Assembly (NCBI GenBank): GCA_030650415.1
Contig: JAUSEG010000006.1
Span: 1 to 50,874, forward strand
Source: a bacterium
GTDB lineage: Bacteria > Patescibacteriota > Patescibacteriia > Patescibacteriales > GWC2-42-12
Direction: 5' to 3'
DNA: 50,874 nt
Part shown: positions 1-47,715 of the stretch, in pieces
Numbering within the stretch: position 1 is the first letter of the stretch
Layout of the letters: the number at the start of each line of letters is the position of its first letter
The notes under the pieces: model-generated
Databases searched by the model: none
What the model was told of the DNA's origin: nothing
Seen by the model: the letters and a program-made list of their open reading frames with translations, nothing else
Position numbers and translations under genes: made by a program

Positions 1-1594
1 GCATCTGTATAAAAACAGGGTTTAAGGACTCTGTTTTTATTTTATTTAAGCCATTAAACATCGGTTCGAACATCGCCGAATTTTGTTTTATAGCTTGAGA
101 GTTCCCCAAAATATATTTAAAGGGTTTTTGTATATCTATAGCCAATTTTCCGTCCTTTAGTATTTGGTTCGAACCTAAACAGGCCAGTATCTCTTTTCTG
201 GTCTGCAGGTCGCCATTTTTAAACCAATAACTGGCATAGCAGGCAAAGTTAAAAGTTTTTTCCGATAATTCCAGCCATTGATCGGCCCGGTGTTCTGTGT
301 CCCTTAACCTTTCAGTCATACCGTCTCTTTGCTTTATTAACTGGTTTTTCTGTCTAAGATATTCATCGTCATCAATTAAATTTTTAAACCGCATCTTGGT
401 AAGTTCGTCAATTTCTCCTTGGACTTGGTTATAGGTTTTTTGCTGATTCTGGTAAATCGTTGTTCTGCCGTCTATTTCTTGGTCGTTCAGTTTATTCAAC
501 CATTTTATCGCCCAATCTTTAAAGCTTTCCGGTATTTCAATTTGTTTTAAATAACCGGCGACTTGTTTTTCCAATTCTTTTTCTTCAATGCACTTTTGCG
601 AGCAATCGGGATTTTTCCTTTTCGTGCAATGATAGTAGGTATAGGTTTTATTTTGCCCGGTCAGTTTCATTATTTTAGTTTTCGTTTCGGCCGTGATTAA
701 AGCCCCGCATTCGCCGCAGCGCATCGAGCCTCTTAAAGGAAAGTCATGTTTTTTAGGCCTTGGCTTGCCCTTCCCGCCCAGTAAAAATTGCACCCGGTCG
801 AATTCCTCGCTGGTTACCATCGGTTCATGCTTGCCAATTTTAATTTCCCCTTGGCAGTGTATCTCGCCAAAATAAAAAGAATTGGTAAAGATTTTATACA
901 AAGTGCTTAGGGCCAAAGGTCTGCCGCCGGACTTTCTTCTTTTAGGAGTTCTAAAGCCCCATTCATTATTGGCCATTTCCCAGATTTGTCTAACCGAATA
1001 ATTGCCGGTTAGCATTAAATCCCACATTTTCCTGATTAGTTTAAATCTTTCAGGATCTGTCAGTATTTTTTTCTCGCCTTTATCGCAAAATTTATCGTTT
1101 CTATAACCTAGAGGCGCGACGCCCGGCATCCAGCCATTATCATATTTAGTTTTTAAGCCTCTTTTAGTATTTTTGCTTAAATCCAATATAAATTGATTGG
1201 CCATGCCGAACTCTACGGCCATGAGCAAGACATTATCTCCTGGCCAATATTCCCTGTCAGAGGCCTGGATATGCTTAATTTTGCCCTTCTGGAGCATATC
1301 TATTAGGTTGCCGCCGTCAATCATATTGCGCGCCAGCCTATCAAGTTTCCAGCAAATAATTCCCTGCGCTTCGCCGCTATCTATTCTTTTGATTACTTCA
1401 TTGAATATCGGCCTGCCGGTGGCTTTAGCCGACTTTGATTCGGTCAAAATATCAATCACTTTAAGATTCATTGTCTCGGCTATCTTTTTTAGTTCATTTA
1501 ACTGCGATTCAATGGATAAAACCTGGCGGTCTTCAGTTTCAGAAGACTTACGGCAGTAAATGATATAATTTATTTTAGAATTTTTATTATTCAT
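1..1594 (-). CDS. Large serine recombinase (partial; C-terminus runs off the left window edge)
   Basis: Absent from the ORF track because it is open to the window edge. Reverse-strand translation from the ATG at 1594 gives MNNKNSKINYIIYCRKSSETEDRQVLSIESQLNELKKIAE...GIICWKLDRLARN, a resolvase-type catalytic domain. Further on it gives ...FPLRGSMRCGECGA...YYHCTKRK, a recombinase zinc ribbon. I checked by hand that the frame at 700-742 agrees with the ATG at 1594, and that it stays open from about base 121 down to base 2. Confidence 0.85.
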   Translation of the reverse strand, partial: MNNKNSKINYIIYCRKSSETEDRQVLSIESQLNELKKIAETMNLKVIDILTESKSAKATGRPIFNEVIKRIDSGEAQGIICWKLDRLARNMIDGGNLIDMLQKGKIKHIQASDREYWPGDNVLLMAVEFGMANQFILDLSKNTKRGLKTKYDNGWMPGVAPLGYRNDKFCDKGEKKILTDPERFKLIRKMWDLMLTGNYSVRQIWEMANNEWGFRTPKRRKSGGRPLALSTLYKIFTNSFYFGEIHCQGEIKIGKHEPMVTSEEFDRVQFLLGGKGKPRPKKHDFPLRGSMRCGECGALITAETKTKIMKLTGQNKTYTYYHCTKRKNPDCSQKCIEEKELEKQVAGYLKQIEIPESFKDWAIKWLNKLNDQEIDGRTTIYQNQQKTYNQVQGEIDELTKMRFKNLIDDDEYLRQKNQLIKQRDGMTERLRDTEHRADQWLELSEKTFNFACYASYWFKNGDLQTRKEILACLGSNQILKDGKLAIDIQKPFKYILGNSQAIKQNSAMFEPMFNGLNKIKTESLNPVFIQM

Positions 1595-3466: not shown

Positions 3467-3615
3467 ATTGTTATAAGAATTGTTAAATGCAAATTGTTAA
3501 ATACAGATTGTTAATACATATATAGGGCGGGGGTCGGATTTAACCTTGGGCAAGAGTCGGATTTAACCTTTAGCTGGTGTTGGATTTGACCTTAACCGGT
3601 GTTGAATTTAACCTG
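3467..3615. repeat. Origin-like region: four ATTGTTA direct repeats plus four 15-bp iterons
   Basis: ATTGTTA occurs at 3467, 3479, 3493 and 3507. The iterons are GTCGGATTTAACCTT at 3533 and 3556, GTTGGATTTGACCTT at 3579 and GTTGAATTTAACCTG at 3601. Their spacing is 23, 23 and 22 bp. The region lies directly downstream of the wHTH gene. Confidence 0.7.
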
Positions 3616-3653: not shown

Positions 3654-4169
3654 TTAATCTGCATAGTCAAGTTGCTCTTCTGAAAACGGCTGGACAAATC
3701 TGTTGCTATTATTTCTCTTCCGAAACTGGCTATCATTTTTTTCAATATTCATTTGCTGTTGATTCCTCAATCTTACATTTTTATCCTCGCCGGCTTTCCT
3801 TGGATTGATGCAGCTGTCAGGAAAGACTAGTGTATAAATTTTAGATTGGCTGTTTTCCTTTTTCCTTTTTTTAACCCAGCCCCTTTGCACCAACTCTTTT
3901 ATATGGTCTTTTATTCTTTCCAATGACATCCCGAGCGCCTTGGCCATACGCCTTTGTTTCCAAAAGCTTTCCCCGTATTTATTAGAAACCAGGTAAAGGA
4001 ATAGCCAAACCATTTTAGCCCCCTTAGTTACTGTTTTATCACGCAGATATTCGCCCGGAATGCTTGCGTAGCGTTTTAGCGTTTTGCTTAAACCAGCCTC
4101 GCGCTTGAGATCTTCAGGCGACTTGAATTCGGGCTCTTTAAATTGTTGCTCTTCCATCGTATCTGGCAT
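3654..4169 (-). CDS. Winged-helix protein, replication-initiator-like
   Basis: Track ORF of 171 aa. AKMVWLFLYLVSNKYGESFWKQRRMAKALGMSLERIKDHIKELVQRGWVKK is a typical wHTH segment. The gene is adjacent to the iterons. Confidence 0.5.
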   Translation of the reverse strand: MPDTMEEQQFKEPEFKSPEDLKREAGLSKTLKRYASIPGEYLRDKTVTKGAKMVWLFLYLVSNKYGESFWKQRRMAKALGMSLERIKDHIKELVQRGWVKKRKKENSQSKIYTLVFPDSCINPRKAGEDKNVRLRNQQQMNIEKNDSQFRKRNNSNRFVQPFSEEQLDYAD

Positions 4170-5347: not shown

Positions 5348-6331
5348 ATGCCGATAGATCAAGGCAGAGCATTTGAATATGCCTGCATATCAGCGTTAAA
5401 TGAAGCTATCACTCGAGCCGGTCAAAACCCGACAATAAATCGGGATAGTAGTTTTGAAATCGCCGAGCAAAATTTTAATTTATTAGCCGATGAAAATAGG
5501 GAGCATGCGGAAGATTTGCGCAAAGCCGCTAGTAAAGTTTCCGAAACGCTTTTAAAAACAGAGCCAAAGCTCAATACGGCTGAAGACTCTTTTCGGGAGC
5601 TAACGCTTTCAATACAGCCTGACACGGCCGGGATGTCTGGAGATGTGCGGGATGTTATTGTTATAAAAGCAAGTACTGGAAATCAAGATAATTGGGAGAT
5701 CGGATTATCTTGCAAGCATAATCATCAAGCGGTTAAGCATCAGCGGGTTTCACCAACAATTGATTTTGGCGATATCTGGCTTGGATTTCCTTTGAGCCAA
5801 GATGAAAAATTAGAGTTGAATAGAATATTTGGGCAAATTGATAACGAGATAGCGGGCGGAAAAATAAAATGGTCTGAAGTAGAAACAAAAGAGGATCGTT
5901 ATTATATTCCAATTTTAAATTTAATTTTGGGAAAAATAGGAAACCATCCCGAGCAGAGCCAATTAGCCAATCATTTTCTCGGGTATTTGATAGGGAAAAA
6001 AGATTTTTACAAAGCAATCTACCGGCAGGCGAAGGGTACTGTTCAGATTCAGGGCTTTAATTTATACGGAAGCTTAAACAAACCAGCGGGGAGTCGGCGC
6101 CCGGAACAAAATATAAACAGGATTAATTTGCCGGAAAGAATTATAGGCTGTGGAATTAAGCCCGGCAGCAAGACCACCTTAGAAATCTTTTTTGACCGGG
6201 GCTGGCAAGTATCTATGAGAGTGCATAATGCCTCTACACGCTTAGAAAAGAGCCTTAAAATGGATGTTGGGCTTATAGGCAATCCCCAAGAATTATTTAG
6301 TTTTACACATACATTAAATGACAACCAATAA
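5348..6331 (+). CDS. Type II restriction endonuclease, HaeIII-family-like
   Basis: The 327-aa ORF overlaps the start of a HaeIII-like C5 methylase by 14 nt. The N-terminus MPIDQGRAFEYACISALNEAI resembles what I recall of HaeIII/NgoPII-type enzymes. The assignment rests mainly on context. Confidence 0.6.
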   Translation: MPIDQGRAFEYACISALNEAITRAGQNPTINRDSSFEIAEQNFNLLADENREHAEDLRKAASKVSETLLKTEPKLNTAEDSFRELTLSIQPDTAGMSGDVRDVIVIKASTGNQDNWEIGLSCKHNHQAVKHQRVSPTIDFGDIWLGFPLSQDEKLELNRIFGQIDNEIAGGKIKWSEVETKEDRYYIPILNLILGKIGNHPEQSQLANHFLGYLIGKKDFYKAIYRQAKGTVQIQGFNLYGSLNKPAGSRRPEQNINRINLPERIIGCGIKPGSKTTLEIFFDRGWQVSMRVHNASTRLEKSLKMDVGLIGNPQELFSFTHTLNDNQ

Positions 6332-7400
6332 TTTAAAAATTGCATCTTTATTTTCTGGCTGCGGCGGGTTAGACCTAGGCTTTGACAAAGCTGGGTTTTA
6401 CGTTGTTTGGGCAAATGAATTTGATGGCACAATTTGGGAAACATTTGAATTTAATTTTCCAAAAGTAAAGCTGGATAAAAGGAGTATCGTAGATGTTCCG
6501 GCTTCTGAAATTCCCGATATTGATGGGATGATAGGCGGTCCGCCATGCCAAAGCTGGAGCGAGGCTGGGGCGGGTAGGGGAATAAACGATAAGCGAGGCC
6601 AGTTATTTTATGATTATATCCGCATACTTAAAGCAAAGCAGCCGAAATTTTTTCTTGCTGAAAATGTTTCCGGCATTCTCCACCCGCAACATGCCAAAGC
6701 TTTTACGAATATTATCCAAGAATTTAAGAATGCTGGATATGAAGTGTCTTATAAACTTTTGAACGCCAACGATTATGGCGTCCCCGAGGATAGGCTCCGC
6801 GTGATTATAGTCGGTTACCACAAAAAATTGAAAAAGAAATTTGAATTTCCAAATCCCCTAAAGAGCAAGCCAGTTTTGAAAGATGCCATTTTTGATTTGC
6901 GCTTGGCAAAGCCTGCTAAAGATAAAAATAAAACTAATGGCGATGTTTTAAAGGTTCCGAACCATGAATATATGAATGGTGGCTTTTCGACTATTTATAT
7001 GTCCCGAAATAGGGTGAGGGGTTGGGATGAGCCATCGTTTACCATCCAGGCAGGCGGAAGGCATGCCCCAATTCACCCTCAAGCCCCCAAGATGAAATTT
7101 ATTAGCCAAAATAAACGAATTTTTATGCCGGGCAAGGAAAAATTATATCGCCGCCTTTCGGTTAGGGAATGTGCACGAATACAAACATTCCCTGATAATT
7201 TTATTTTTAAATATCGTGATATAGCAGATGGGTATAAAATGATTGGGAATGCAGTGCCTGTTGAATTCGCCCGCCACATTGCAAATAAAATATGCCAGGA
7301 TTTAAGCGGTATATCGGAGGCATTAAACTATGGACAAATTTACCAAAGAAAAGAGGAGCGAGATTATGTCAAAAATTCGCTCGCAAAATACCAAAGTTGA
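6318..7400 (+). CDS. DNA (cytosine-5)-methyltransferase, M.HaeIII-like (probable GGCC specificity)
   Basis: Motifs FSGCGGLDLGF (I), GGPPCQSWS (IV), ENV (VI), QTFPD and GNAVP (X). The variable region HEYMNGGFSTIYMSRNRVRGWDEPSFTIQAGGRHAPIHPQAP closely parallels M.HaeIII as I remember it. Confidence 0.9.
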   Translation: MTTNNLKIASLFSGCGGLDLGFDKAGFYVVWANEFDGTIWETFEFNFPKVKLDKRSIVDVPASEIPDIDGMIGGPPCQSWSEAGAGRGINDKRGQLFYDYIRILKAKQPKFFLAENVSGILHPQHAKAFTNIIQEFKNAGYEVSYKLLNANDYGVPEDRLRVIIVGYHKKLKKKFEFPNPLKSKPVLKDAIFDLRLAKPAKDKNKTNGDVLKVPNHEYMNGGFSTIYMSRNRVRGWDEPSFTIQAGGRHAPIHPQAPKMKFISQNKRIFMPGKEKLYRRLSVRECARIQTFPDNFIFKYRDIADGYKMIGNAVPVEFARHIANKICQDLSGISEALNYGQIYQRKEERDYVKNSLAKYQS

Positions 7401-7734
7401 AATTTTAATTTTTCGTGAGTTAAGGAAGCGAAAAATATATTTTCAAAAGCATTATAAAAAAATTCTTGGTTGCCCGGATATAGCTTTGCCAAGAAAAAAG
7501 AAAGCAATATTTATTGATGGAGATTTTTGGCACGGATACCAATTTTTAAGATTAAAAAAGAGATTACCCAAAAAATATTGGTTAAAGAAAATTGAAGGCA
7601 ATGTAAAGCGCGACTTAAGAAATCGCACACAATTGAAACGCGCTGGTTGGAAAATTTTAAAAATTTGGGAGCATGAGATTGCTAACGATTTTACAAAGAG
7701 CATGAATAAAGTAATTAACATTTTGGGAGATTGA
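7330..7734 (+). CDS. vsr: Very short patch repair endonuclease
   Basis: KEKRSEIMSKIRSQNTKVE...FIDGDFWHG...GWKILKIWEHE is the Vsr signature. The gene overlaps the 3' end of the methylase by 71 nt in another frame. Confidence 0.85.
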   Translation: MDKFTKEKRSEIMSKIRSQNTKVEILIFRELRKRKIYFQKHYKKILGCPDIALPRKKKAIFIDGDFWHGYQFLRLKKRLPKKYWLKKIEGNVKRDLRNRTQLKRAGWKILKIWEHEIANDFTKSMNKVINILGD

Positions 7735-7779: not shown

Positions 7780-7808
7780 TTGACTTTAGGTTTATGATTT
7801 GGTAAGAT
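7780..7808 (+). promoter_or_regulatory. Sigma70-like promoter TTGACT-N17-TAAGAT
   Basis: TTGACT lies at 7780-7785 and TAAGAT at 7803-7808, about 20 nt upstream of the riboswitch P1 stem. Confidence 0.5.
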
Positions 7809-7829
7809 AAAAGTACAATTGAATAGTTA

Positions 7830-7934
7830 AGTTATCAAGAGTGCAGCGAGGGAACTAGCCCGACGACCTGCCAGCAACCCCGGAGCAATCCATCCGGAAG
7901 GTGCCAATTCTAGCCCGACAAGGGAAAGATAAAG
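7830..7934 (+). promoter_or_regulatory. SAM-I (S-box) riboswitch aptamer
   Basis: GTTATCAAGAGTGCAGCGAGGGAACTAGCCCGACGACCTGCCAGCAACC...GGTGCCAATTCTAGCCCGACAAGGGAAAGATAAAG matches the S-box blocks in order. The blocks are TTATCAAGAG, GAGGGA, GCCCGA.GA, GCAACC, GGTGC.AATTC and AGATAA closing P1. Confidence 0.9.
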
Positions 7935-7954
7935 GTCGATTTTTTATTGGTAAA

Positions 7955-7996
7955 ATAAAAAACTCTTTCTTTTCTCGGGGAAGAGGTTTTTTATTA
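7955..7996 (+). terminator. Riboswitch expression-platform terminator
   Basis: CTCTTTCTT (7963-7971) pairs with GGGGAAGAG (7977-7985), with some G-U pairs. A T6 run follows one nucleotide later (7987-7992), about 24 nt before the downstream ATG. Confidence 0.55.
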
Positions 7997-8015
7997 ATTA
8001 TTAACAATTAAATTT

Positions 8016-8726
8016 ATGGAAAACAAAATTAAAGAGCTGCGTGATTTTTATCTTTTAGACGGCAAGCTACTATACGTTTCCAAAGACTTTATTGGTTTTG
8101 ACCCGATTATTGGTAAAGGGTTATCTTATGAGCGCAATAAAAAAGAAAATACCACAATCAAGCTTGATAAATTTAAAATCGGGGAAACTTCTTTTAATGT
8201 TGTTTTGACTAGCTTTATGGATTGGGGTCCGTTAAGGGGTTATCATCGAGCAGAAATATTAAAAAATGGCTATAGCATTATAAATTATGAACACGGCGGC
8301 ATGGGGCATGGGTCTAACTATTGTAAAGGTGATTATTTTCACAAAGAAAATAAAGACGCTTTTTTACTCAAAAATGGTTATGCGCTTAAAGATAGATTAA
8401 GTGATAAAATTTATTTAGATCTTAACGGCAATAATGATTATCTGTTTTGGTTTAAGAATATAGTTATACCGACTAAGGGCAAAAATTGGCCAGCCGATGG
8501 CAGAGCGTTAGAAAATAACCGCTCCTATATTTGCGCTGAAATAGAATCTCTAAGGCAAATTCAATGGGAAGCGAATGTAAATTTTAGCAATCACCATATT
8601 TATATCAAAAAGACAGCTGTGCCGTATTGCTCACTTGTTTATTGGAGATCGGCCGATGATTATCAAATATATAGAAAAGATAGTTGGCAGACGGCGCTTG
8701 ATAAAATAGAGCTCATATTCATATAA
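8016..8726 (+). CDS. Hypothetical soluble protein (236 aa) under SAM-I riboswitch control
   Basis: Track ORF and first gene after the riboswitch. It contains HGGMGHGSNYCKGDYFH. No TM segment or known motif recognised. Confidence 0.6.
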   Translation: MENKIKELRDFYLLDGKLLYVSKDFIGFDPIIGKGLSYERNKKENTTIKLDKFKIGETSFNVVLTSFMDWGPLRGYHRAEILKNGYSIINYEHGGMGHGSNYCKGDYFHKENKDAFLLKNGYALKDRLSDKIYLDLNGNNDYLFWFKNIVIPTKGKNWPADGRALENNRSYICAEIESLRQIQWEANVNFSNHHIYIKKTAVPYCSLVYWRSADDYQIYRKDSWQTALDKIELIFI

Positions 8727-8756
8727 AGCTGATTAAATAATTAAAATTTATTAAAT

Positions 8757-8981
8757 ATGATTATTCCAAATTTAGGGCAATATAAGTCAGTAGGCGAATG
8801 GTATGACCATTTTATAACTAACGGCTATGCTATACCTTTATCTTTATGCAACGGCTTGACATGGGTTATGAAAAGACATAATTTTACCTTTGCTCAAGCA
8901 TTTGAATTCTTAGAGAAGAATGAAAAAATTATATTAGCCGGTAGATCATTTATCTATGACATGTCTGGCGACGGACTATAA
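8757..8981 (+). CDS. Hypothetical protein (74 aa)
   Basis: Track ORF lying 30 nt after the previous stop on the same strand. Confidence 0.45.
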   Translation: MIIPNLGQYKSVGEWYDHFITNGYAIPLSLCNGLTWVMKRHNFTFAQAFEFLEKNEKIILAGRSFIYDMSGDGL

Positions 8982-12731: not shown

Positions 12732-13390
12732 ATGACGAAATTAAAAGATATTCCAAAATTTGATCGTCCCAGAGAGAAATTTTTGGAGAAGGGATCGGAC
12801 GCTTTAACCGATAGCGAGCTTTTGGCTATTTTGCTTGGTAGCGGGATTAAAGGAACAAATGTAAAAGTGTTGGCACAAAAGATTTTGAAAAAATTCGGAG
12901 ATAATTTATTGAACGCTTCGGTTGATGATTTGATGCAAATTTCGGGAATCGGCCAGGCAAAAGCTTTGCAAATTTCATCCGCGCTTGCGTTGACGAGGAG
13001 AATCTTTGACAAGCAAAATTCTTTGGACAATTTAATTTTATCGGCGCAGGATGCCATTGCTTTCGTTTCGGACTTGAAAGATAAAAAACAAGAACACTTG
13101 ATTTGTCTTTATTTAAACGCACGCAATGCCTTATTAAAAAAAAGACAATTTCAATCGGCACCTTGGACAAAAGTATTATTCATCCGCGAGAAATTTTCGC
13201 TCCCGGGTTGGAAATACACGCCGCCGGGGTGATACTTGTTCACAATTATCCTTCCGGTGATTCAAGCCCAAGTGAGCAAGACAAGCAAGTGGCCAAAAGG
13301 ATAATCGAGGCGGGGCAATTGATGGGTATTAATGTAGTCGATTTTTTGATCATTGCAAAAAACGGTGTGCATAGCATACTTGGCGAGATT
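12732..13390 (+). pseudogene. radC: radC-like JAB-domain gene interrupted by a -1 frame change in an A8 run
   Basis: Frame 0 gives MTKLKDIPKFDRPREKFLEKGSDALTDSELLAILLGSG...LYLNARNALLKK. The -1 frame continues TISIGTLDKSIIHPREIFAPGLEIHAAGVILVHNYPSGDSSPSEQD, which carries the JAMM HxHPSGD-like motif. The switch maps to AAAAAAAA at 13136-13143. Confidence 0.8.
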
Positions 13391-13567
13391 AAAAGTACGG
13401 AGCTGACGGATACGGAGTATGTTGCTGATGGTTCTCAATCTTCTTTGCTTGATCTGCTTGTTGATACAAAACCAGTAACTTTTTACAAAAAAAGTGAAAC
13501 CTCAGATATTAAATTTAAAATTTTAAACAACGAAAGAAGGAAAAATATTCACCAAAAATCAGAGAGC

Positions 13568-13954
13568 AAAGATTTATTTATAAATCAAATTATTTGCGGC
13601 GATGCCGTTGATGTAATGAAAAAAATCCCAGATAATACTGTGCAACTGGTGATTACTTCACCACCTTACAATTTGAAAAATTCTACAGGAAACGGGATGA
13701 AAGATGGCCGCGGTGGAAAGTGGGCGAATGCCGCTTTGCAGAAAGGTTATTCTCATCATAACGACAATATGCCTCATGATGAATATGTAAAATGGCAGAG
13801 AGATTGCCTTGCGGAAATGTTTCGGATTATCCCTAATGATGGTGCGATTTTTTATAACCACAAATGGCGAGTGCAAGGCGGTGTTTTGCAGGGGCGTCAA
13901 GATATAGTTAACGGTTTTCCGGTTCGTCAAATTATAATTAAAAATGTATTATAA
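13568..13954 (+). pseudogene. N4/N6 DNA methyltransferase, N-terminal fragment only (fused in frame to the radC -1 frame)
   Basis: INQIICGDAVDVMKKIPDNTVQLVITSPPYN carries the SPPY catalytic motif. Similarity ends at VRQIII, where a W.K is expected. The AdoMet-binding C-terminal half is absent. Confidence 0.7.
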
Positions 13955-14165
13955 ACTCATGGCTCAATTAACGAAAAAACAAATCAAAAGACAGGATTTT
14001 GTGGATAACGAAATATTTGAGTTAATTAAACGGCTGGCGCCGTCCGCGAAAATTAAATGGGATATTGAGATAATAGCGGATGTTCGAGAATCAATACGAA
14101 TACAGCTTATTAATAAGAAAAAAATAAAAAGTGAAATGGGATTTTATCCATACATAAAAATATGA
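13944..14165 (+). CDS. Hypothetical protein (73 aa)
   Basis: Track ORF. Its stop overlaps the next start (ATGA at 14162-14165). Confidence 0.4.
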   Translation: MYYKLMAQLTKKQIKRQDFVDNEIFELIKRLAPSAKIKWDIEIIADVRESIRIQLINKKKIKSEMGFYPYIKI

Positions 14166-15199
14166 AACTCGAAGTTAGAGAATCGCAAATCGAAGATGTG
14201 TTTGTGAGTGCGGGCGTTCTAACGCGTCGCATTCTCAATCTTGAAGACGAACCACGACTGCTTGTGCGACAGATGATTTTACCTTCGGGACGGCTTGATT
14301 TATTGTATGCTTACCAAACCAAACTGCTTTTAATAGAACTGAAAGCTGTTAAATTCAAGCGCGATTTTTTGGATCAAGTATTGAACTATAAGAACGAACT
14401 TTTGGAATATCAGCAAAGAGGCAAATTGTTGCAAGGCGATATCGAATCGTTCTTACTGTGTACTGAAGCAACTTCGTTAGAAAAATCTTTAGCCGAAAAA
14501 AGAGGGGTAAATCTAACCAAATATGATCCGCAAGAGGTGTTAGGTTTTTTTTATAAAAATTTCAAGCCAATTGCTTTTTTTACCAAAACAAAACCGATAG
14601 ATATAGGAATTTGGAATCTGCATTTAGTACATGAATTTATTTATCTCTTAGAGCAAACAAATTCAGTCATTCGGTTGCGTGAGTTAATTGGCGGTTCCCA
14701 AAAGACCCTATATAACAAGATCAAGTTTGCTTTTGAGTTACGTTTGATTAATTGGTTACCCAACCAAGATAAAGTTTCTTTGACGAATTTGGGTAAACAG
14801 TATGTACAGAGCAAAGATAAAATTTTGTCTCAACGAATGAGCGAGGAACAAGCGGAACTGTTGCGGAGATTTGTTATCCAAAACCCTTATGAATCGTCGG
14901 TTATTTTGGGAATTGCGGCTGTCGTTGAATCAGTTTTTGCCTTGTCTAAGAATACTTATCCAGTGCCAATGGGGCACTTGATAGAATACTTTGCTTACTT
15001 TGCAGGTAAGTATTTTGATTGGCAAACGCCCAAAGCAAAATTTAACGCCACACGAATGTATTCTAATTATGCTGTTGATTTGGGATTACTAGCAAAAACA
15101 GACAATACGGTTTACCTTACACCCGAGGGATTTCGCTTTACGGTTCAAATGCAGCTGCATAAAAGTTTTAAAATGGTAGAGTCGTTACGAGTTTTTTGA
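14162..15199 (+). CDS. PD-(D/E)xK (NucS/DUF91-like) nuclease domain protein with C-terminal helical/wHTH-like region
   Basis: GRLDLLYAYQTKLLLIELKAVKF is a D...E.K nuclease core. The protein is 345 aa. Confidence 0.55.
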   Translation: MKLEVRESQIEDVFVSAGVLTRRILNLEDEPRLLVRQMILPSGRLDLLYAYQTKLLLIELKAVKFKRDFLDQVLNYKNELLEYQQRGKLLQGDIESFLLCTEATSLEKSLAEKRGVNLTKYDPQEVLGFFYKNFKPIAFFTKTKPIDIGIWNLHLVHEFIYLLEQTNSVIRLRELIGGSQKTLYNKIKFAFELRLINWLPNQDKVSLTNLGKQYVQSKDKILSQRMSEEQAELLRRFVIQNPYESSVILGIAAVVESVFALSKNTYPVPMGHLIEYFAYFAGKYFDWQTPKAKFNATRMYSNYAVDLGLLAKTDNTVYLTPEGFRFTVQMQLHKSFKMVESLRVF

Positions 15200-15221
15200 G
15201 GATAATCACTATACTAAAGTA

Positions 15222-15386
15222 ATGATGTTGCAAAAATTTAGTTTTGAAAAATTTCTAAACGCGCTTGAGCAAGGTAAAATATTTGTAGATTTTGACGCGC
15301 GGACGGGACATAATCATGGAACAAAGTTTAGAATGAAACAAGATTGTTTGCCGATGTTGTATGAAAAAGCGACAGTAATAATTTAA
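15222..15386 (+). pseudogene. MvaI/BcnI-family restriction endonuclease, C-terminal tail only (54 codons)
   Basis: MMLQKFSFEKFLNALEQGKIFVDFDARTGHNHGTKFRMKQDCLPMLYEKATVII. The DFDART...HNHGTKFR...LY block matches my memory of the C-terminus of this family. Confidence 0.5.
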
Positions 15387-15416
15387 CCTAATTTTGATTT
15401 TTTTAGAATTTTTTGT

Positions 15417-16109
15417 TTGAAATTATTTCGGCAAGCCGGACATAGTTTTAAAAAAAATATAAAGCGGTTATTTTTCTTGACTCTTGCTTTTAGCCCGGCT
15501 GTAAAAAAATGTAAACTCCAGGCTAATCGGATTTTAGACTTTAAGTTTGCTGACAGTACTGCTTGGCGAGTAGATTTTTCCGATGTATTTGAAAAATTTG
15601 TACAATATATATTTAAAGAAGTAGCGAAAGAATCCGGCGGGCGCTTGTTGGTAAATTATAAGTTTGATGGATATTCGCCTCGACAATACGCGTGGGAATT
15701 AAATTATCTTGAACCCGATGCAATATTACAGAAAGGTAAGGCGATAGTTATTATAGACGCAAAGTATAAATCTCACCTTTACAATAAATTTGGGGCCAGC
15801 GAAATTTTAAAAGAAGAACATAGGCGAGATTTGCATCAATTATTAGCGTACGTTTCGTTTAGCAAAACCGAAACAAAATTTGGCCTCCTATGCTATCCAT
15901 CGCAAGAAATTGAAATGAAAGAAATACAGTATCGTAACCCCATAAATCAAACTCTAAATAAAATAAAAATATTTGGCCTCCCATTAAAAAATAGTAGCGT
16001 TAGTGAGGCTAAGCGATTATTGTCAAATGAGTTAATGCTAATTGAAGAATTAAGCGATAATGAATCAAGCAAAATTTTGCATAGTACTCTTATGTTAAGA
16101 GGCGCATAA
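15417..16109 (+). CDS. McrC-like PD-(D/E)xK nuclease domain protein, probably N-terminally truncated; no McrB partner
   Basis: FEKFVQYIF...LEPDAILQKGKAIVIIDAKYKS is the McrC-type nuclease core. The track start is a TTG and the N-terminal 40 aa look non-native. Confidence 0.5.
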   Translation: MKLFRQAGHSFKKNIKRLFFLTLAFSPAVKKCKLQANRILDFKFADSTAWRVDFSDVFEKFVQYIFKEVAKESGGRLLVNYKFDGYSPRQYAWELNYLEPDAILQKGKAIVIIDAKYKSHLYNKFGASEILKEEHRRDLHQLLAYVSFSKTETKFGLLCYPSQEIEMKEIQYRNPINQTLNKIKIFGLPLKNSSVSEAKRLLSNELMLIEELSDNESSKILHSTLMLRGA

Positions 16110-16315
16110 AAATAGTATGTTCCCGCCAATTTTACTGGTAAACAATTTAACGGTTTGTACGCGGAAAAATTTGAAATTTAGCTATCATAAAAAATTATGC
16201 TATAATGTGTATATCTGCGGATAAGTCTTGACAAGTAAAATTTTTTAGAGTAATGTTGCTCTACTGGAAGTATCGCAGAAATATGGATGGAATTTCTTTG
16301 ATTTTGCTAAAATCA

Positions 16316-16353
16316 CCCACTCTGCTCCCTTCGGGGGGCACGGTGGGCTTTTT
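16316..16353 (+). terminator. Hairpin plus T5 in the leader of the NYN gene
   Basis: CCCACTCTGCTCCC, loop TTCG, GGGGGCACGGTGGG (one mismatch), then C and TTTTT. It ends 9 nt before the ATG at 16362. Upstream promoter-like sites are TGCTATAAT (16198-16206) and TTGACA-N17-TAATGT (16228-16256). Confidence 0.6.
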
Positions 16354-16361
16354 GTTATATT

Positions 16362-16925
16362 ATGCAAAAGAATGAAAGAGTCGCTGTTTTTATTGACGGC
16401 AGCAATTTATATCATAAGTTAAAGGAACTGCGTATTCCCAACACTATTAATTTTAGTTACGCGGGGTTATGCAAAAAACTTGCCCGAGGCAGGTAAATAA
16501 TTTTCTGCCGCTATTATGTCGGGGCTATTAGGGCCAAAGAAAATGATCAGAAAGGACAAAATCTCCGAGCTAATCAGCTAAGATTATTTAATAATTTAAC
16601 AGCGCAAGGATTTGTTATTAAGAAAGGAAATTTTTTGTTTAATAGCGGCGGTTATCATGAAAAAGGCGTTGATGTTAAATTGGCGGTTGATTTATTAGTT
16701 GGGGCGTATGATGATATATGGGATATCGCTATAATTATTTCATCTGATTCAGATTTAAACCCCGCGATAAAAAAAGTAAAACATCTGAACAAGAATGTTG
16801 AATATATAGGATTTTCTCATAGTCCCTGTTATTCATTGCAAAAAGTTTTATCGTTATCACGATTATTAATAAAAGATGATATAGAGGAATTTATTGCTTT
16901 TAAAAGCGGGGGCGGGCGCTTTTAA
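16362..16925 (+). pseudogene. NYN/LabA-like domain gene with one in-frame TAA (16494-16496)
   Basis: MQKNERVAVFIDGSNLYHKLKEL...LARGR, then a stop, then IIFCRYYVGAIRAKENDQKG...GVDVKLAVDLL...IIISSDSDLNPAIKKV. I verified that 16362 and the track ORF 16635..16925 share the same frame. Confidence 0.75.
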
Positions 16926-17203: not shown

Positions 17204-20200
17204 ATGGAAAACGAAAATATTAATGTACCAGCAACGGAAAATATACCTCCGACCAAGCCATTATCGCCGCTCCAACCGAATAAGAAAAATAAACGAATTT
17301 GGCCGGGAATAGGCATAGTAATATTTTTAGCTTTAGTTGTTTTTATTTCAGCTTTCTTTTATTTTCAAACACGGACGACCGGTCCTTTAGGCGGCAAGAC
17401 CCCGGAAAGAAAAGATTTATTTAGCGGCTTTTCAAAACTAATTATCAGCGCTGCTAATGCCAATGATAACTTTACTTTAAAACCTTTAAACATTGATAGT
17501 TTGGGTGTTAAGGCTGATACGGTTTATGTGATAAAAAGCAAAGAACCCTTGAATACGGATATAATTAAAGACAATTTGCAAATTAAGCCTGATTTTCCTT
17601 ATGACTTTAAAAAAATTTCTGACACAGAATGGCATTTAGTACCGCGCCAGACCCTGCCGGCCAATACCTTAGTGCAGATTGCCTTAGCCACGGCTTATAT
17701 CGATGAGAATAATCAAACCCAAGAACGCGATTATTCCTGGGTATATCAAGTCAAGGATAGTTTTAAAGTGCTTCATAGTATTCCTCGTGACGCCGGCACG
17801 AATGTTCCGGTTAATACTGGTGTTGAGATTACTTTTAGCCATGACAATTACTACGATTATGAAAAATATTTTTCTATTAATCCTTCAGTTAAGGGAAAAT
17901 TTGAACAGCACGGCCGCACTTTAGTTTTCGTTCCAGAAACAACCTTAAATTTTAAAACCTTATATCAAGTTACGATTAAGCGCGGTTTGCCGTTAGCCGA
18001 TTCCGCGGAAACTTTAGCCTCTGATTATATTTTTACTTTTGAAACTCAGTTAGCCAGTAATGCCAAAGCTAATAATTGGTATGGAGTTTATGACCGATTG
18101 ATTGAGGCTAATTCCCAAGACGCGCCAATTATACAAGTTTCTTCTTATGCGGCGCCCGACCAGCTGGAAGTTGAAATTTTTCGTTTTAATGATTGGCAGG
18201 AATATTTAGAGTCAATCCGCGAACGTGATAATTTGCCCTGGTGGTCTTACAGTAAAGACGATTTTTTAATGGCTACCGCCAAATTAAAAAAGATCAGCAT
18301 CTTTACCGTACCGGTGAAGGCAAACAGCCAGGTAAAATACATCGAATTCCCAGAAAAGTTGCCCCCAGGTTTTTATTTAGCCGAATTGAAAAACAATAAC
18401 GATAAAGTGCAAGTCTGGATACAAGTAAGCGATTTATCAGCTTATTATAATGTGACAAAAACCCAGACGATTTTTTGGGTAAACGATAATATAAATAAAA
18501 ATCCGGTTAGCGGCGTTAAATTGGAATTACTTGATAGTTCATTATCGGTTTTAACCGACGCGCAGGGCGTGGCTGTATTTAAAACGCCGGACGAGATATT
18601 AAATAATGCCACTAACGAAAAAGTCGCTAAGCGCCAGTATTTTAAATTAAACAAAGACAATGGCACCTTAATTTTACCGGCCTCGCAAATTTCGCATGAT
18701 TGGTGGTGGAATCGTCCAGTCGCGGCTGATAATTACTGGCTCTATCTTTATACTGACCGGCCGCGCTATCAGACGACCGACACGATAAAATTTTGGGGGC
18801 TGGTTAAAGACCGCAGCTCTAAATCCATAAATGAAAAAGCCACTTTGACGCTTTTTAAGGAAGGGTATGTCGATTATTATTATCAACCGGTAGCCATTAT
18901 GAGCCAGGAGCTAAAAATTAGCGACTTGGATACTTTTAAGGGCGAGATGGCGATAAAAAATTTACGCCCCGATTATTACACCCTGGAATTAAAAATCGGT
19001 GAAATCGTGGTTAAACGAAGCTATATAACCATCATGCCTTATACCAAGCCAGCTTTTCAGTTAAGCCTGGTGCCGGATCATCATGCGGCTTTCGCCGGCG
19101 ATACGATTAATTTAAAAGTTAAAGCCAATTTTTTTGAAGGCACTCCGGTACCGGCTTTGTCGCTCAAGTTTGAAACTCCGGAAAAAGTAGAAAAAATATT
19201 TACTACCGATGAGAATGGGGAGGCTAATTTGACGTATACTGCAAATTATAATGATTGCCCTGACGATTACGGCTGTTGGCCGAAATCAACCAGATTATCA
19301 ATCTCGCCGGAAAATTCCGAACTGGCGGAAATCAGCGCTGAAACTTATGTTAATTTTTACGGCCCGAAAGTTTATCTTGAAAGTAAAACCATTTATCCTG
19401 CCAAAGGCCAGGGCCAGGTGGAAATGACCGCCAAGTTAATTGATTTGGCTAAACTGGAAACTGATGAATCGGGGAGTCGGAGTCTGGGCGACAGACCGGC
19501 GGCCGGAATTAAGATTGAAGGTGATTTAATAAAGACTTCATATGTTAAGAAGGAAACCGGCACAGCCTACGATTTTATCAACAAAACCAGCTATAAAACT
19601 TATAGCTACGACAGGCGCGAGGAAAAAGTCAGGAGTTTCAGCGGTATGACCGACCAAAATGGCCAATATATTTTTAAACAGCAGCTTGAACCGGAAATTT
19701 CCTACCAGCTCAAGTATCGCGTTATTGACAGCCAAGGCCGATTCGACAACCAGACCAATTATTTATATTACTATAACGGTATTTCCCTTAATCACTACGA
19801 TGGCTTTAACTACCAATATTATCATTTAAGCTTAACTGACCCCATAACCCAGCAAATTAAAACTTACTCGGTTAATGATCAAGTTAAGGCAATTTTTAAG
19901 AAAAATGATGAGCCGGTGCAAAATGGCAGCAACCGTTTTCTCTATCTAGAGCTCCAAAACGGCTTACAGGAATATCAGATTACCAGTAAAAACGAATACA
20001 ACTTTGCTTTTGAATCCCGCGATGTACCGAACGTTAATCTGGTTGGAGTTTATTTTGACGGCCAGTCGTACCACTCAACTGCCGCAAGCTACTGGGGCGA
20101 TTCGATCAATTTTAAAACCGCGGACAGGCAGCTAAAAGTCAAAGTTGAAACCGATAAAGATAACTACTTGCCCGGCGAAAATGTCAAATTAAATTTTGCG

Positions 20201-42019: not shown

Positions 42020-43012
42020 ATGATAAAAAATATTAAAAATAAAGGTGAGATAGTAATTTATAAAACCAAGCAGGGTCCGAAATTGGACGTTAAGATGGAG
42101 AAGCAAACTGTTTGGTTGACCCAGGCGCAAATTGGGTTGCTTTTTGGCACGCAAAGGCCGGCAATTACCAAACATTTTAAAAATATTTTTGAAAGCGGAG
42201 AGTTGGAAGAAAAATCAGTATGTTCCATTTTGGAACATACTGCCGCTGACGAAAAAGTTTATAAAACTCAATTTTATAATCTAGATGCAATCATATCAGT
42301 GGGTTATCGAGTCAATTCCAAGAGAGCTACCCAATTTCGTATCTGGGCGACCAAGACTTTAAAAGATCATTTGGTTCAGGGCTATACGATTAATGAAAAA
42401 AGATTGCTGGAAGCTAAAGAGAAATTTGCCGAACTGCAAACCGCTATTTCATTTTTACGAGATAAAGCCAAAAACGAGCTATTGATCGGGCAAGAGCAGG
42501 AAATATTAAATCTGCTGGCTTATTATTCCAGCTCGCTTACTATTCTGGAGAAGTATGATAAAAACAAGTTAGCTTTGCCCGCAGACGGAAAAACTAAATA
42601 TAAATTAACTTTTGAGCTGGCGCTGGAAATTATAGAAGGCATCAAAGTCGAACTCGTAAAGAGAAAAGAAGCCAGTGATATTTTCGGCCGGCAAAGCGCT
42701 CATAAGTTGGAAAGCATCTTAGCCAATCTCTGGCAGACTTTTGGCGGGCGAGAGCTTTATAAAAATTTGGAAGAAAAGGCCGCGCATCTTTTATATTTAA
42801 TTATAAAAGATCATCCGTTTATCGACGGTAATAAACGTATCGGCTCATTTTTGTTTGTTTATTTTTTGGATAAAAATAATTTTCTTTACCGCAAAAACGG
42901 TGAGAAAAAGATTAACGATAACGCTTTAGTAGCCCTGGCATTACTCACCGCCACGAGCGATCCTAAGGATAAAGAGGTGATGATAAAAATTATTGTGAAT
43001 TTGTTGAAATAA
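42020..43012 (+). CDS. RhuM-like N-terminal domain fused to a Fic/Doc domain
   Basis: YNLDAIISVGYRVNSKRATQFRIWATK is the RhuM block. HPFIDGNKRIG is the Fic motif. Confidence 0.8.
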   Translation: MIKNIKNKGEIVIYKTKQGPKLDVKMEKQTVWLTQAQIGLLFGTQRPAITKHFKNIFESGELEEKSVCSILEHTAADEKVYKTQFYNLDAIISVGYRVNSKRATQFRIWATKTLKDHLVQGYTINEKRLLEAKEKFAELQTAISFLRDKAKNELLIGQEQEILNLLAYYSSSLTILEKYDKNKLALPADGKTKYKLTFELALEIIEGIKVELVKRKEASDIFGRQSAHKLESILANLWQTFGGRELYKNLEEKAAHLLYLIIKDHPFIDGNKRIGSFLFVYFLDKNNFLYRKNGEKKINDNALVALALLTATSDPKDKEVMIKIIVNLLK

Positions 43013-45775: not shown

Positions 45776-45783
45776 AAGCTATA

Positions 45784-46932: not shown

Positions 46933-46934
46933 TT

Positions 46935-47702: not shown

Positions 47703-47715
47703 TTAAAATAATCAA

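What the first reader, a model, noticed from the sequence alone, without database searches (positions are those of the whole stretch)
7780..8981. Complete SAM-I riboswitch drives genes of unknown function beside an R-M module
Bases 7830-7934 match the S-box aptamer block by block. They are preceded by TTGACT-N17-TAAGAT and followed by a hairpin plus T-run, so this looks like a full transcriptional OFF switch.

SAM-I normally controls Met/Cys/SAM biosynthesis or transport genes. Here the first regulated gene encodes a 236-aa soluble protein (MENKIKELRDFYLLDGKLLYV...HGGMGHGSNYCKGDYFH...) with no motif I can place. A 74-aa unknown follows. The locus lies immediately after a SAM-consuming HaeIII-type R-M-Vsr module, inside an accessory island.

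There are two readings:
- It is a new SAM/methionine-related enzyme.
- It is an accessory defence or anti-defence function that turns on only when SAM falls, for example when an invader deploys a SAM-degrading anti-restriction enzyme. This reading is speculative.
Basis: partly seen in the sequence, partly recalled or inferred. Interest (0 to 1): 0.75.

Follow-up and report, generated by a model that had tools for sequence, protein, structure and literature searches.

The report
SAM riboswitch plus mobile orphan gene
A genuine S-adenosylmethionine (SAM)-sensing RNA switch turns on a small protein only when SAM runs short; the protein has no known relatives or matching fold and travels with its switch between bacterial defence islands, so it marks an undescribed SAM-linked function.

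Summary
Bases 7829-7935 are a canonical SAM-I (S-box) aptamer (Rfam 58.5 bits, gathering score 44.4). It has an intrinsic terminator (7963-7985 plus a U-run) and a nearly isoenergetic antiterminator, so it is a complete transcriptional OFF switch ahead of the 236-aa ORF.

The new result is that switch and gene form a conserved, mobile cassette. Of 13 distinct homologue loci, 9 carry a SAM riboswitch directly upstream. The Saccharibacteria-type clade has SAM-I. The deepest, Bacteroidota-type clade has SAM-I/IV. The flanks are unrelated.

The protein family is tiny (about 52 clusters among 1.8 billion representatives) and is under purifying selection. It matches nothing in Pfam, NCBIfam, PADLOC, PHROGs, PDB or BFVD, although two AlphaFold models are confident and all-beta.

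Neighbours are mostly defence genes or mobile elements (R-M systems, Shedu, PDC-S15, PDC-S26, serine recombinases). One subgroup sits on a phage-like contig without a switch. Adjacency to R-M itself is not conserved, and neither is the 74-aa ORF.

The protein's function is not resolved:
- SAM supply, salvage or sparing: about 0.4.
- A conflict-related role triggered when SAM collapses: about 0.3.

The riboswitch class is known. The regulated family and its mobile, defence-island setting are new.

The parts
7780..7808 (+). Sigma-70-like promoter TTGACT-N17-TAAGAT with a TG extension, 21 nt upstream of the aptamer
   Evidence: 9 of 12 matches. It is not above chance on its own. DNA homology to related loci begins at 7811-7815, just downstream of the -10 box, which fits a transcription start there. 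This is an inference.
7829..7935 (+). SAM-I (S-box) aptamer with a four-way junction P1-P4
   Evidence: -: 58.5 bits against a gathering score of 44.4.
- 6 base pairs in P2/P3 keep pairing through changes on both sides across 5 related leaders.
- canonical SAM-contact blocks. The P2-loop/J3-4 pseudoknot covaries (CUAG:CUAG against CUGG:CCAG).
7908..7929 (+). 5' strand of the antiterminator. It overlaps the 3' strands of P4 and P1 and pairs with 7964-7985.
   Evidence: With the P1 5' strand unavailable, the leader folds into this helix at -45.8 kcal/mol. The aptamer-plus-terminator form is -46.6 kcal/mol. The two are mutually exclusive.
7940..7962 (+). A/U-only spacer hairpin between aptamer and terminator
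   Evidence: An equivalent hairpin is visible in the L005 and L019 leaders. It is absent in L001 and L010.
7963..7992 (+). Intrinsic terminator: hairpin 7963-7985 followed by a U-run
   Evidence: Equivalent terminators lie in L005 (5953-5971) and L001 (7936-7962).
8016..8726 (+). 236-aa orphan protein, the conserved gene regulated by the switch
   Evidence: - No Pfam, NCBIfam, PADLOC, PHROGs or PDB-sequence match.
- About 52 clusters in 1.8e9 representatives.
- dN/dS 0.08-0.20.
- AlphaFold2 pLDDT 92.8, all-beta, no Foldseek match in PDB or BFVD.
- A second model of a 31%-identical homologue gives the same result.
8757..8981 (+). 74-aa ORF, probably co-transcribed (30-nt gap, no terminator) but lineage-specific
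   Evidence: It has only two homologous clusters, at 76% identity. It is not related to the ORFs that follow the gene in L005 (65 aa) or L001 (143 aa).
5348..7734 (+). Context: HaeIII-type REase (5348-6331), C5 DNA methylase (6318-7400) and Vsr (7330-7734). No + strand terminator lies between the Vsr stop and the aptamer.
2..1594 (-). Context: large serine recombinase at the left end of the low-GC island. It is homologous to the recombinase next to the module in L001.

Best explanation
**The unit.** Window 7780-8726 is a self-contained, horizontally mobile cassette. It consists of a canonical SAM-I riboswitch and the single gene it controls.

**RNA mechanism (shown in silico, confidence about 0.95).** When SAM is bound, P1 and P4 form. 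The hairpin at 7963-7985 plus its U-run then stops transcription 30 nt before the start codon. When SAM falls, 7908-7929 pairs with 7964-7985 as an antiterminator. The 236-aa ORF is then transcribed, together with the lineage-specific 74-aa ORF in this genome.

**Link between switch and gene (shown, about 0.9).**
- The same pairing of a SAM sensor with this protein family recurs across about 30-100% protein identity.
- It recurs across two aptamer architectures, SAM-I and SAM-I/IV.
- The DNA on both sides is unrelated.
- The protein is therefore wanted specifically when SAM is scarce.

**Protein function (inferred, about 0.4).** This is the most likely single reading. The protein is a new kind of SAM-economy factor. 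It would be an enzyme or ligand-binding protein that restores, salvages or spares SAM or methionine, closing the usual negative-feedback loop of S-box regulons. Mobile elements and phages would carry it because their DNA methyltransferases depend on the host SAM pool. The conserved Gly-rich hairpin (G94, G97, G99, Y102, G105) and the E175/E177/R180/W184 helix are the candidate ligand site.
For: **RNA**
- Rfam score.
- Compensatory changes in stems.
- Canonical ligand-contact blocks and covarying pseudoknot.
- Terminator.
- Near-isoenergetic terminator and antiterminator folds.

**Link between switch and gene**
- SAM-I lies upstream of P0005 (67.3 bits), P0002 (62.6), the L014 copy from a Candidatus Saccharibacteria genome assembled from a metagenome (MAG) (58.6) and P0004 (66.3).
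- L019 begins at the 3' edge of the aptamer and keeps the same expression platform.
- SAM-I/IV lies upstream of the 28-32%-identical P0020, P0071 and P0043 (49, 50.5 and 48.1 bits; gathering score 41.1).
- DNA homology of the window to all of these loci is limited to 7811-8629.
- No neighbouring protein family is shared across loci.
- L005 and L014 share the cassette at 95% nucleotide identity (gene pS 0.02), while the adjacent rpoA-rpsI core is only 83-89% identical. This indicates recent transfer.

**Protein**
- Purifying selection.
- Two confident models.
- Conserved Gly-rich loop and acidic/Arg helix.

**Prior**
- SAM riboswitches mainly regulate SAM biosynthetic enzymes (PMC6411933 abstract).
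- SAM-I also regulates sulfur, methionine and cysteine metabolism (PMC10853860).
- A DNA methylase lies in the same island in 3 contexts.
- A phage-like contig carries a homologue, which is compatible with an auxiliary metabolic gene.
Against: - There is no similarity by sequence or predicted fold to any Met/SAM enzyme, transporter or binding protein.
- Few conserved polar residues. Most conserved positions are Gly, Pro or aromatic.
- The family is very rare and patchy for a useful metabolic function.
- It sits in defence islands and mobile elements rather than in metabolic operons.
- 4 of 13 loci have no riboswitch.
- No ligand binding, transcription or expression data exist. No RNA runs were found.
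Confidence: 0.4

Rival explanations
1. **Conflict-related role triggered by SAM collapse.** The riboswitch would be used as a sensor of failing methylation capacity. The failure could come from starvation of an epibiont, or from a phage SAM lyase.

The protein would then do one of two things:
- Protect the cell or the element from its own restriction systems (restriction alleviation).
- Act as a back-up or abortive defence.
For: - Five independent long contexts place the cassette among defence genes:
  - HaeIII R-M, Vsr and an McrBC fragment in the window.
  - C5 R-M and Vsr in L001.
  - A type III-like Mod/Res pair in L005.
  - Shedu SduA (2e-100) and PDC-S15 (4.5e-60) in L014.
  - PDC-S26 (1e-99) and WYL regulators in L004.
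- Toxin-antitoxin-like neighbours occur in L019, L020 and L008.
- The distribution is rare, patchy and horizontally transferred.
- The conservation pattern does not look like an enzyme.
- Phage SAM-degrading enzymes were discovered as a counter-defence against R-M. SAM degradation de-represses SAM-controlled (MetJ) genes (PMC7877911).
- In the window, R-M transcripts have no terminator before the switch. Read-through into the gene would therefore happen only at low SAM.
Against: - No PADLOC model matches.
- The SAM-I/IV loci (L008, L016, L017) are not clearly in defence islands.
- HaeIII-type cleavage does not need SAM, so a phage SAM lyase would not disable it (established knowledge).
- A toxic effector that ordinary SAM fluctuations could de-repress would be costly.
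- A general inhibitor of unrelated restriction enzymes is hard to imagine.
- The family's pI ranges from 5.2 to 9.4, so it is not a DNA mimic.
- No non-metabolic SAM-riboswitch regulon is known.
Confidence: 0.3
2. **Anti-defence or establishment protein of mobile elements and phages.** It would, for example, inhibit a SAM-dependent host defence. On chromosomal islands its expression would happen to be SAM-gated.
For: - Homologues occur on a phage-like contig between large unannotated ORFs and replication genes.
- The cassette lies on serine-recombinase elements.
- One gene call fuses the domain to pentapeptide repeats.
Against: - SAM-OFF logic has no obvious use for an entry-phase anti-defence gene.
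- There are no matches in IMG/VR, GenBank phages or PLSDB plasmids.
- The pentapeptide fusion truncates the domain at residue 202, so it may be a frameshift artefact.
Confidence: 0.08
3. **No functional link.** The aptamer and terminator mainly end the upstream R-M-Vsr operon, or are a hitch-hiking relic. The 236-aa gene is unrelated to SAM.
For: - There is no other + strand terminator after Vsr.
- Four homologue loci lack any riboswitch.
Against: - The switch travels with the gene, not with R-M. The same leader-plus-gene unit occurs after rpsI, after KilA-N and after a recombinase, with no R-M upstream.
- A second aptamer class occurs in the most distant clade.
- The stems keep pairing through compensatory changes.
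Confidence: 0.04
4. **Altered ligand.** The aptamer would be a specificity variant that senses something other than SAM, as the spermidine-sensing SAM-I variants do.
For: An unusual gene association is exactly how such variants were found (PMC10853860).
Against: - Those variants carry changes in J1/2 and in the P3 internal loop.
- All five leaders here keep the canonical UUAUC(A/C)AGAG, GCAACC, AAGGUGC and AAAGAUA blocks.
- Distant homologues use SAM-I/IV, a second SAM-binding architecture.
Confidence: 0.03

Closest known systems
S-box / SAM-I riboswitch leaders of Firmicutes met/cys/SAM genes (Rfam RF00162; the structural reference is the T. tengcongensis metF aptamer, from my own knowledge)
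   Same: - Full-length match above the gathering score.
- Four-way junction.
- Pseudoknot.
- Canonical ligand-contact nucleotides.
- Terminator/antiterminator OFF logic.

   Different: - The host is a groundwater bacterium of the Saccharibacteria/Patescibacteria type.
- The regulated gene is not a Met/Cys/SAM enzyme or transporter. It is an orphan protein on a mobile island.
- Leader and gene move together as a cassette of about 1.2 kb.
SAM-I/IV riboswitch (Rfam RF01725, same clan CL00012)
   Same: It sits directly upstream of the most distant clade of the same protein family (L008, L016, L017; 48-50.5 bits against a gathering score of 41.1). The regulatory logic is therefore shared.
   Different: - The peripheral architecture differs.
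- The expression platform was not resolved here.
- The two classes may share ancestry, so this is not proof of independent recruitment.
Spermidine-sensing variants of SAM-I (Salvail et al. 2023, PMC10853860)
   Same: A SAM-I-like aptamer with an atypical gene association and a transcription-termination OFF switch.
   Different: - Those variants have mutated J1/2 and P3 internal-loop nucleotides and control polyamine genes.
- The aptamers here are canonical, and the gene is not a polyamine gene.
Riboswitch candidates tied to a protein of unknown function, such as the yjdF motif (PMC4793209, abstract seen)
   Same: A conserved structured leader is almost the only clue to the role of an uncharacterised protein.
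   Different: Here the ligand is known and the protein is the unknown. In the yjdF case both were unknown.
Phage SAM-degrading enzymes (T3 SAMase, Svi3-3 SAM lyase; PMC7877911)
   Same: They are the known route by which infection lowers SAM and de-represses SAM-controlled genes. This is the trigger assumed in the defence reading.
   Different: - There is no sequence or fold similarity to the 236-aa protein: no PHROGs or BFVD match.
- A SAM degrader under a SAM-OFF switch would make no regulatory sense.
Restriction-alleviation proteins of phages and prophages (lambda Ral, Rac Lar; from my own knowledge, not tested)
   Same: They are small accessory proteins, carried by phages or mobile elements, that modulate the balance between restriction and modification. 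This is a possible functional analogy.
   Different: - No homology.
- Those proteins act on type I systems.
- No SAM-sensing control is known for them.

Membership tests
SAM-I riboswitch (RF00162) | Covariance-model score at or above the curated gathering score, over the full model | tested here: met
   58.5 bits against 44.4, model positions 1-108 of 108, E = 4.6e-11.
SAM-I riboswitch (RF00162) | P1-P4 four-way junction supported by covariation | tested here: met
   among 5 related leaders, 6 of 24 predicted pairs (in P2 and P3) keep pairing through changes on both sides. P4 is conserved. P1 is short (5 canonical pairs; the outer 3 are non-canonical).
SAM-I riboswitch (RF00162) | Conserved ligand-contact nucleotides in P1/J1-2, the P3 internal loop and the P1 3' strand | tested here: met
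   UUAUCAAGAG, GCAACC, AAGGUGC and AAAGAUA are present in all five leaders.
SAM-I riboswitch (RF00162) | Pseudoknot between the P2 loop and J3/4 | tested here: met
   Sequences. The pairing is CUAG:CUAG in the window, L005 and L014, and CUGG:CCAG in L001 and L010. This is a compensatory change, read directly from the sequences.
SAM-I riboswitch (RF00162) | Expression platform with mutually exclusive terminator and antiterminator | tested here: met
   -46.6 against -45.8 kcal/mol. The antiterminator uses 7908-7929 and 7964-7985.
SAM-I riboswitch (RF00162) | Selective binding of SAM over SAH, and SAM-dependent termination | not testable with these tools
   This needs in-line probing, ITC or single-round transcription. 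No RNA-seq runs hold the locus.
Spermidine-sensing SAM-I variant | Altered J1/2 and P3 internal-loop nucleotides, and association with polyamine genes | tested here: not met
SAM-I/IV riboswitch (RF01725), leaders of distant homologues | Score at or above the gathering score, directly upstream of the homologue | tested here: met
   L008 49 bits, L016 50.5, L017 48.1, against a gathering score of 41.1. The aptamer ends 45-51 nt before the start codon.
Known Met/Cys/SAM metabolic or transport protein families | Match to a curated family (Pfam, NCBIfam), to a solved structure by sequence, or to a fold | tested here: not met
   - no sequence-based match.
- best Foldseek E = 0.06 and TM-score at or below 0.2 for two models.
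- AlphaFold DB was not available.
Known anti-phage defence proteins (PADLOC-DB 2.0) | Match to a defence-system model | tested here: not met
   no match for the 236-aa or the 74-aa protein. Neighbours in other loci do match.
Phage protein families (PHROGs, BFVD folds) including SAM lyases | Profile or fold match | tested here: not met
Type II R-M with Vsr (context genes) | REase, C5 MTase and Vsr domains, adjacent and co-oriented | tested here: met
   -.
- GGCC is under-represented in the window: 184 observed against 270 expected.

The most novel reading that the evidence does not exclude
The SAM riboswitch is used by mobile defence islands as a metabolic alarm. When SAM collapses, through starvation of the epibiont or through a phage SAM lyase, the cassette expresses a new-fold protein. 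That protein either shields the genome from its own restriction enzymes or provides back-up immunity. This would be the first riboswitch-gated immune or self-protection function. It would also be the first SAM-riboswitch regulon member outside metabolism.
Probability: 0.3. Interest if true: 0.9.

Novelty: new variant of a known kind. Interest (0 to 1): 0.68.

Why it matters
- **A known ligand pointing at an unknown protein.** The family has no sequence or fold relatives, yet it has been kept under two SAM-sensing architectures in two phyla. It should therefore do something specific at low SAM. That makes an otherwise unapproachable protein directly testable through binding, metabolite and restriction assays.
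- **If it is metabolic.** It adds a new activity to SAM/methionine economy in ultra-small, host-dependent bacteria and in their phages.
- **If it is conflict-related.** It would show that defence islands can read cell metabolism through a riboswitch. It would also link SAM depletion, a known phage counter-defence, to a host response.
- **A practical by-product.** It supplies a compact natural SAM-responsive OFF switch from a Saccharibacteria-type lineage, a group for which inducible control elements are wanted (PMC11665869).

Tried and rejected
1. **Known-family assignment.** Pfam, NCBIfam, PADLOC, PHROGs, a PDB profile search, and Foldseek against PDB (two models) and BFVD all gave nothing.
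2. **Conserved partner gene.** The ORFs after the gene (74, 65 and 143 aa) are unrelated. An all-against-all BLASTP of 13 loci found no shared neighbour family beyond the related elements. The '74-aa partner' idea is rejected.
3. **Specific linkage to R-M.** This is rejected as a rule. L014 has the same cassette at 95% identity with Shedu and PDC-S15 instead of R-M. L008, L016 and L017 have no R-M.
4. **DNA-mimic anti-restriction protein.** Rejected, because family pI ranges from 5.2 to 9.4.
5. **Altered-ligand variant.** Rejected on the conserved core.
6. **Fusion partners as clues.** The pentapeptide-repeat fusion (P0035) truncates the domain and may be an artefact. The other extensions have no Pfam match.
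7. **Phage or plasmid relatives.** None in IMG/VR (4 scans), GenBank phages or PLSDB. Only the metagenomic contigs L022 and L023 look phage-like.
8. **Literature.** No paper combines SAM riboswitches with restriction-modification, phage defence or Saccharibacteria.
9. **Transcript evidence.** No RNA runs hold the locus. DNA contigs show only that the island is near single-copy: depth about 40 against about 47 in the core.
10. **First attempt at locus retrieval.** The 18-sequence alignment had no stretch conserved enough to search with.
11. **SAM-I/IV expression platform.** It could not be resolved from three sequences.
Full report
**1. The observation**

A scan of the whole window against Rfam finds one family above its gathering score. 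It is SAM-I (RF00162) at 7829-7935 on the + strand, with 58.5 bits against 44.4 and full model coverage. The blocks that contact the ligand are canonical: UUAUCAAGAG, GCAACC, AAGGUGC and AAAGAUA.

A TTGACT-N17-TAAGAT element with a TG extension lies at 7780-7808. Promoter-like matches are no commoner here than in shuffled sequence, so it is only plausible. The hairpin at 7963-7985 followed by a U-run is the only terminator-like site on the + strand. Such sites are enriched in the region, 4 found against 0.8 expected.

Folding shows two mutually exclusive states of almost equal energy:
- Aptamer plus terminator: -46.6 kcal/mol.
- An antiterminator in which 7908-7929 (the 3' strands of P4 and P1) pairs with 7964-7985: -45.8 kcal/mol, obtained when the P1 5' strand is withheld.

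This is the anatomy of a transcriptional OFF switch.

**2. The setting in the window**

Bases 1 to about 17,000 are a low-GC island. It contains:
- a large serine recombinase at the left edge (2-1594, minus strand);
- a RepL/DnaD-like initiator gene (3654-4169, minus strand) with iteron-like tandem repeats beside it;
- the R-M-Vsr module;
- the riboswitch cassette;
- small wHTH and XRE genes;
- decayed fragments of RadC, an N6/N4 methylase, McrBC and NYN.

Core genes follow from 17,204 (an A2M-like protein, PheST, MurJ, BipA, MetRS). The sequence comes from a groundwater metagenome. In that run the island is at about the same depth as the core, roughly 40 against 47.

**3. The protein**

The 236-aa product has no match in Pfam, NCBIfam, PADLOC or PHROGs, nor in a profile search of PDB sequences. 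A word-indexed search of 5.8 billion clusters found 20 relatives, none with an informative name. A full HMMER profile search of 1.84 billion representatives found only 52. It is a real gene, with dN/dS of 0.08-0.20 in four comparisons.

AlphaFold2 gives a confident all-beta model (pLDDT 92.8, pTM 0.86). A 31%-identical homologue gives the same strand order (pLDDT 89.1). Neither model has a Foldseek neighbour in PDB or BFVD. The best E-values are about 0.06 for the two PDB searches and 0.008 for BFVD, and TM-scores are about 0.2 or lower. AlphaFold DB could not be searched, so 'new fold' is provisional.

Across 46 members the conserved positions are mostly Gly, Pro and aromatic. They include a Gly-rich hairpin (G94, G97, G99, Y102, G105) and an E175/E177/R180/W184 segment. 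The pI ranges from 5.2 to 9.4, which argues against a DNA mimic.

**4. The key result: the switch belongs to the gene**

I fetched DNA for 13 distinct family members.

| Riboswitch upstream | Loci |
|---|---|
| SAM-I, full aptamer | window; P0005 (L001, 67.3 bits); P0002 (L005, 62.6); the L014 copy from a Candidatus Saccharibacteria genome assembled from a metagenome (MAG) (58.6); P0004 (L010, 66.3) |
| SAM-I, expression platform only | L019 (P0006); the contig starts at the 3' edge of the aptamer and has the same platform |
| SAM-I/IV (RF01725) | P0020 (L008, 49 bits), P0071 (L016, 50.5), P0043 (L017, 48.1); 28-32% identical to the window protein; gathering score 41.1 |
| None, even at permissive thresholds | P0018 (L004), P0010 (L015), P0012/P0088 (L018, L022, L023), P0069 (L020) |

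In a neighbour-joining tree the SAM-I clade is monophyletic. The SAM-I/IV clade is the deepest branch, and the switch-less members lie between them.

The five SAM-I leaders keep P2 and P3 through compensatory changes and the pseudoknot through a CUAG/CUGG swap. The RNA is therefore under selection.

**5. The cassette is mobile and has no fixed partner**

DNA similarity between the window and every other locus is confined to 7811-8629, that is, the leader plus the gene. All-against-all BLASTP finds no neighbour family shared across independent loci. The ORFs that follow the gene (74, 65 and 143 aa) are unrelated.

L005 and L014 share the cassette at 95% nucleotide identity (synonymous difference 0.02). 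The adjacent rpoA-rpsI genes are only 83-89% identical, and the cargo to the right differs completely. This indicates recent horizontal transfer of a unit of about 1.2 kb.

**6. What surrounds the cassette**

| Locus | Neighbours |
|---|---|
| Window | HaeIII R-M, Vsr, McrBC fragment |
| L001 | Serine recombinase, then the cassette, then a C5 methylase, a 344-aa ORF and Vsr; related to the window element |
| L005 / L011 | A type III-like Mod, a helicase and a TnsA-like nuclease, with no terminator or promoter detected between the gene and the Mod |
| L014 | AntA and KilA-N upstream; DUF6804, PDC-S15 (4.5e-60) and Shedu SduA (2e-100) downstream |
| L004 | PDC-S26 (1e-99), WYL regulators, an AAA ATPase |
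| L019, L020, L008 | Panacea/HTH, Rv0078B-like and Fic genes |
| L022 / L023 | Phage-like: DnaB-like helicase, a phrog_2825 polymerase, a GIY-YIG homing endonuclease, large unannotated ORFs of 450-1,107 aa |
| L016, L017 | Uninformative |

R-M adjacency is therefore not conserved. A variable defence or mobile-element setting is.

**7. Interpretation**

*Shown:* a canonical SAM-OFF switch, and a long-lived, transferable link between SAM sensing and this protein family.

*Inferred:* the protein is needed when SAM is low.

Two readings remain.
- **SAM-economy reading (about 0.4).** It follows the logic of essentially all known SAM riboswitch regulons (PMC6411933 abstract). It explains carriage by methylase-bearing elements and by phages. 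It fits a Gly-rich candidate ligand loop.
- **Conflict reading (about 0.3).** This covers restriction alleviation or back-up defence when methylation capacity fails. It explains the defence-island setting, the rarity and the weak catalytic signature. It also connects to phage SAM lyases, which lower SAM and de-repress SAM-controlled genes (PMC7877911).

Against a toxic effector: ordinary SAM fluctuations would trigger it. Against a specific guard of the HaeIII module: that enzyme does not need SAM to cut (established knowledge).

Three minor rivals are disfavoured for the reasons given in their entries. They are an anti-defence gene, an incidental terminator for the R-M operon, and an altered-ligand variant of the kind found for spermidine (PMC10853860).

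**8. Comparison with what is known, and verdict**

The RNA is an ordinary member of the SAM-I class. What is new:
- the regulated family, which has no homologues of known function and no fold match;
- its behaviour as a mobile leader-plus-gene cassette;
- its residence in defence islands of Saccharibacteria-type and Bacteroidota-type genomes;
- the use of two SAM aptamer architectures for the same protein family. SAM-I and SAM-I/IV belong to one clan, so shared descent cannot be excluded.

I found no paper that links SAM riboswitches with restriction-modification, phage defence or Saccharibacteria. I rate it a new variant of a known kind, with interest 0.68. The cis element is solid. The biology of the protein is open and directly testable.

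Noticed in passing
window 3478-3614, beside 3654-4169 (-): There are iteron-like tandem repeats: 14 bp x 3, and 22-23 bp x 3.5. They lie directly upstream of a RepL/DnaD_N/HTH_36-like initiator gene. This looks like a replication-origin module inside the integrated island.
   Followed up: partly
window 17204-22699: An 1,831-aa alpha-2-macroglobulin-like protein carries a HINT/intein-like insert at about residues 1056-1194, between the bait-region and A2M domains.
   Followed up: no
window 12732-16925: The right part of the island is decaying.
- RadC is split into two overlapping frames. Its JAB half is fused to the N-terminal fragment of an N6/N4 methylase (13103-13954).
- Only a C-terminal McrBC fragment remains (15417-16109).
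- An NYN gene is split (16362-16496 and 16635-16925).

   Followed up: partly
window, whole (GGCC sites): GGCC, the HaeIII site, is under-represented. It occurs 184 times against 270 expected from a Markov estimate, in both island and core. CCGG and GCGC are not depleted. GATC is also low, 109 against 153.
   Followed up: partly
window 43017-49176: Three paralogous ORFs of 434-486 aa each end in a PEP-utilizers mobile domain. They have no other recognised domain. A RhuM+Fic gene lies just upstream at 42020-43012.
   Followed up: no
L005 5626-6835 vs L014 5636-6831; L014 4600-4702: The cassette is 95% identical between two genomes whose flanking ribosomal and rpoA genes are only 83-89% identical. 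In L014 a 113-nt copy of the cassette's upstream region is repeated on the other side of the KilA-N gene. This suggests an insertion flanked by direct repeats.
   Followed up: partly
L001, L005, L011, L014 (downstream of rpsI): In three Saccharibacteria-type genomes the region just after rplM-rpsI is a variable hot spot. It holds different cargo in each: a recombinase with a C5 R-M; a type III-like R-M; AntA/KilA-N with Shedu and PDC-S15.
   Followed up: partly
L008 4990-5140: GCTAGC-rich palindromic repeats (GCTAGCGGCTAGTAGCTAAAAGCTAGCGGCTG and related) lie just upstream of the SAM-I/IV aptamer. Their nature is unknown.
   Followed up: no
window 7830-7948 in run X14: Another groundwater sample of the same study holds several short contigs that match only the aptamer region, with 1-7 differences, at depth 10-20. 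Closely related SAM-I leaders therefore exist in other community members.
   Followed up: no
L022 8001-8909 (P0012/P0088): The phage-like homologues are called as 302 aa, with an acidic, low-complexity N-terminal extension of about 70 aa. An internal Met just before the conserved FYLLDGKLLY start could be the true start.
   Followed up: no
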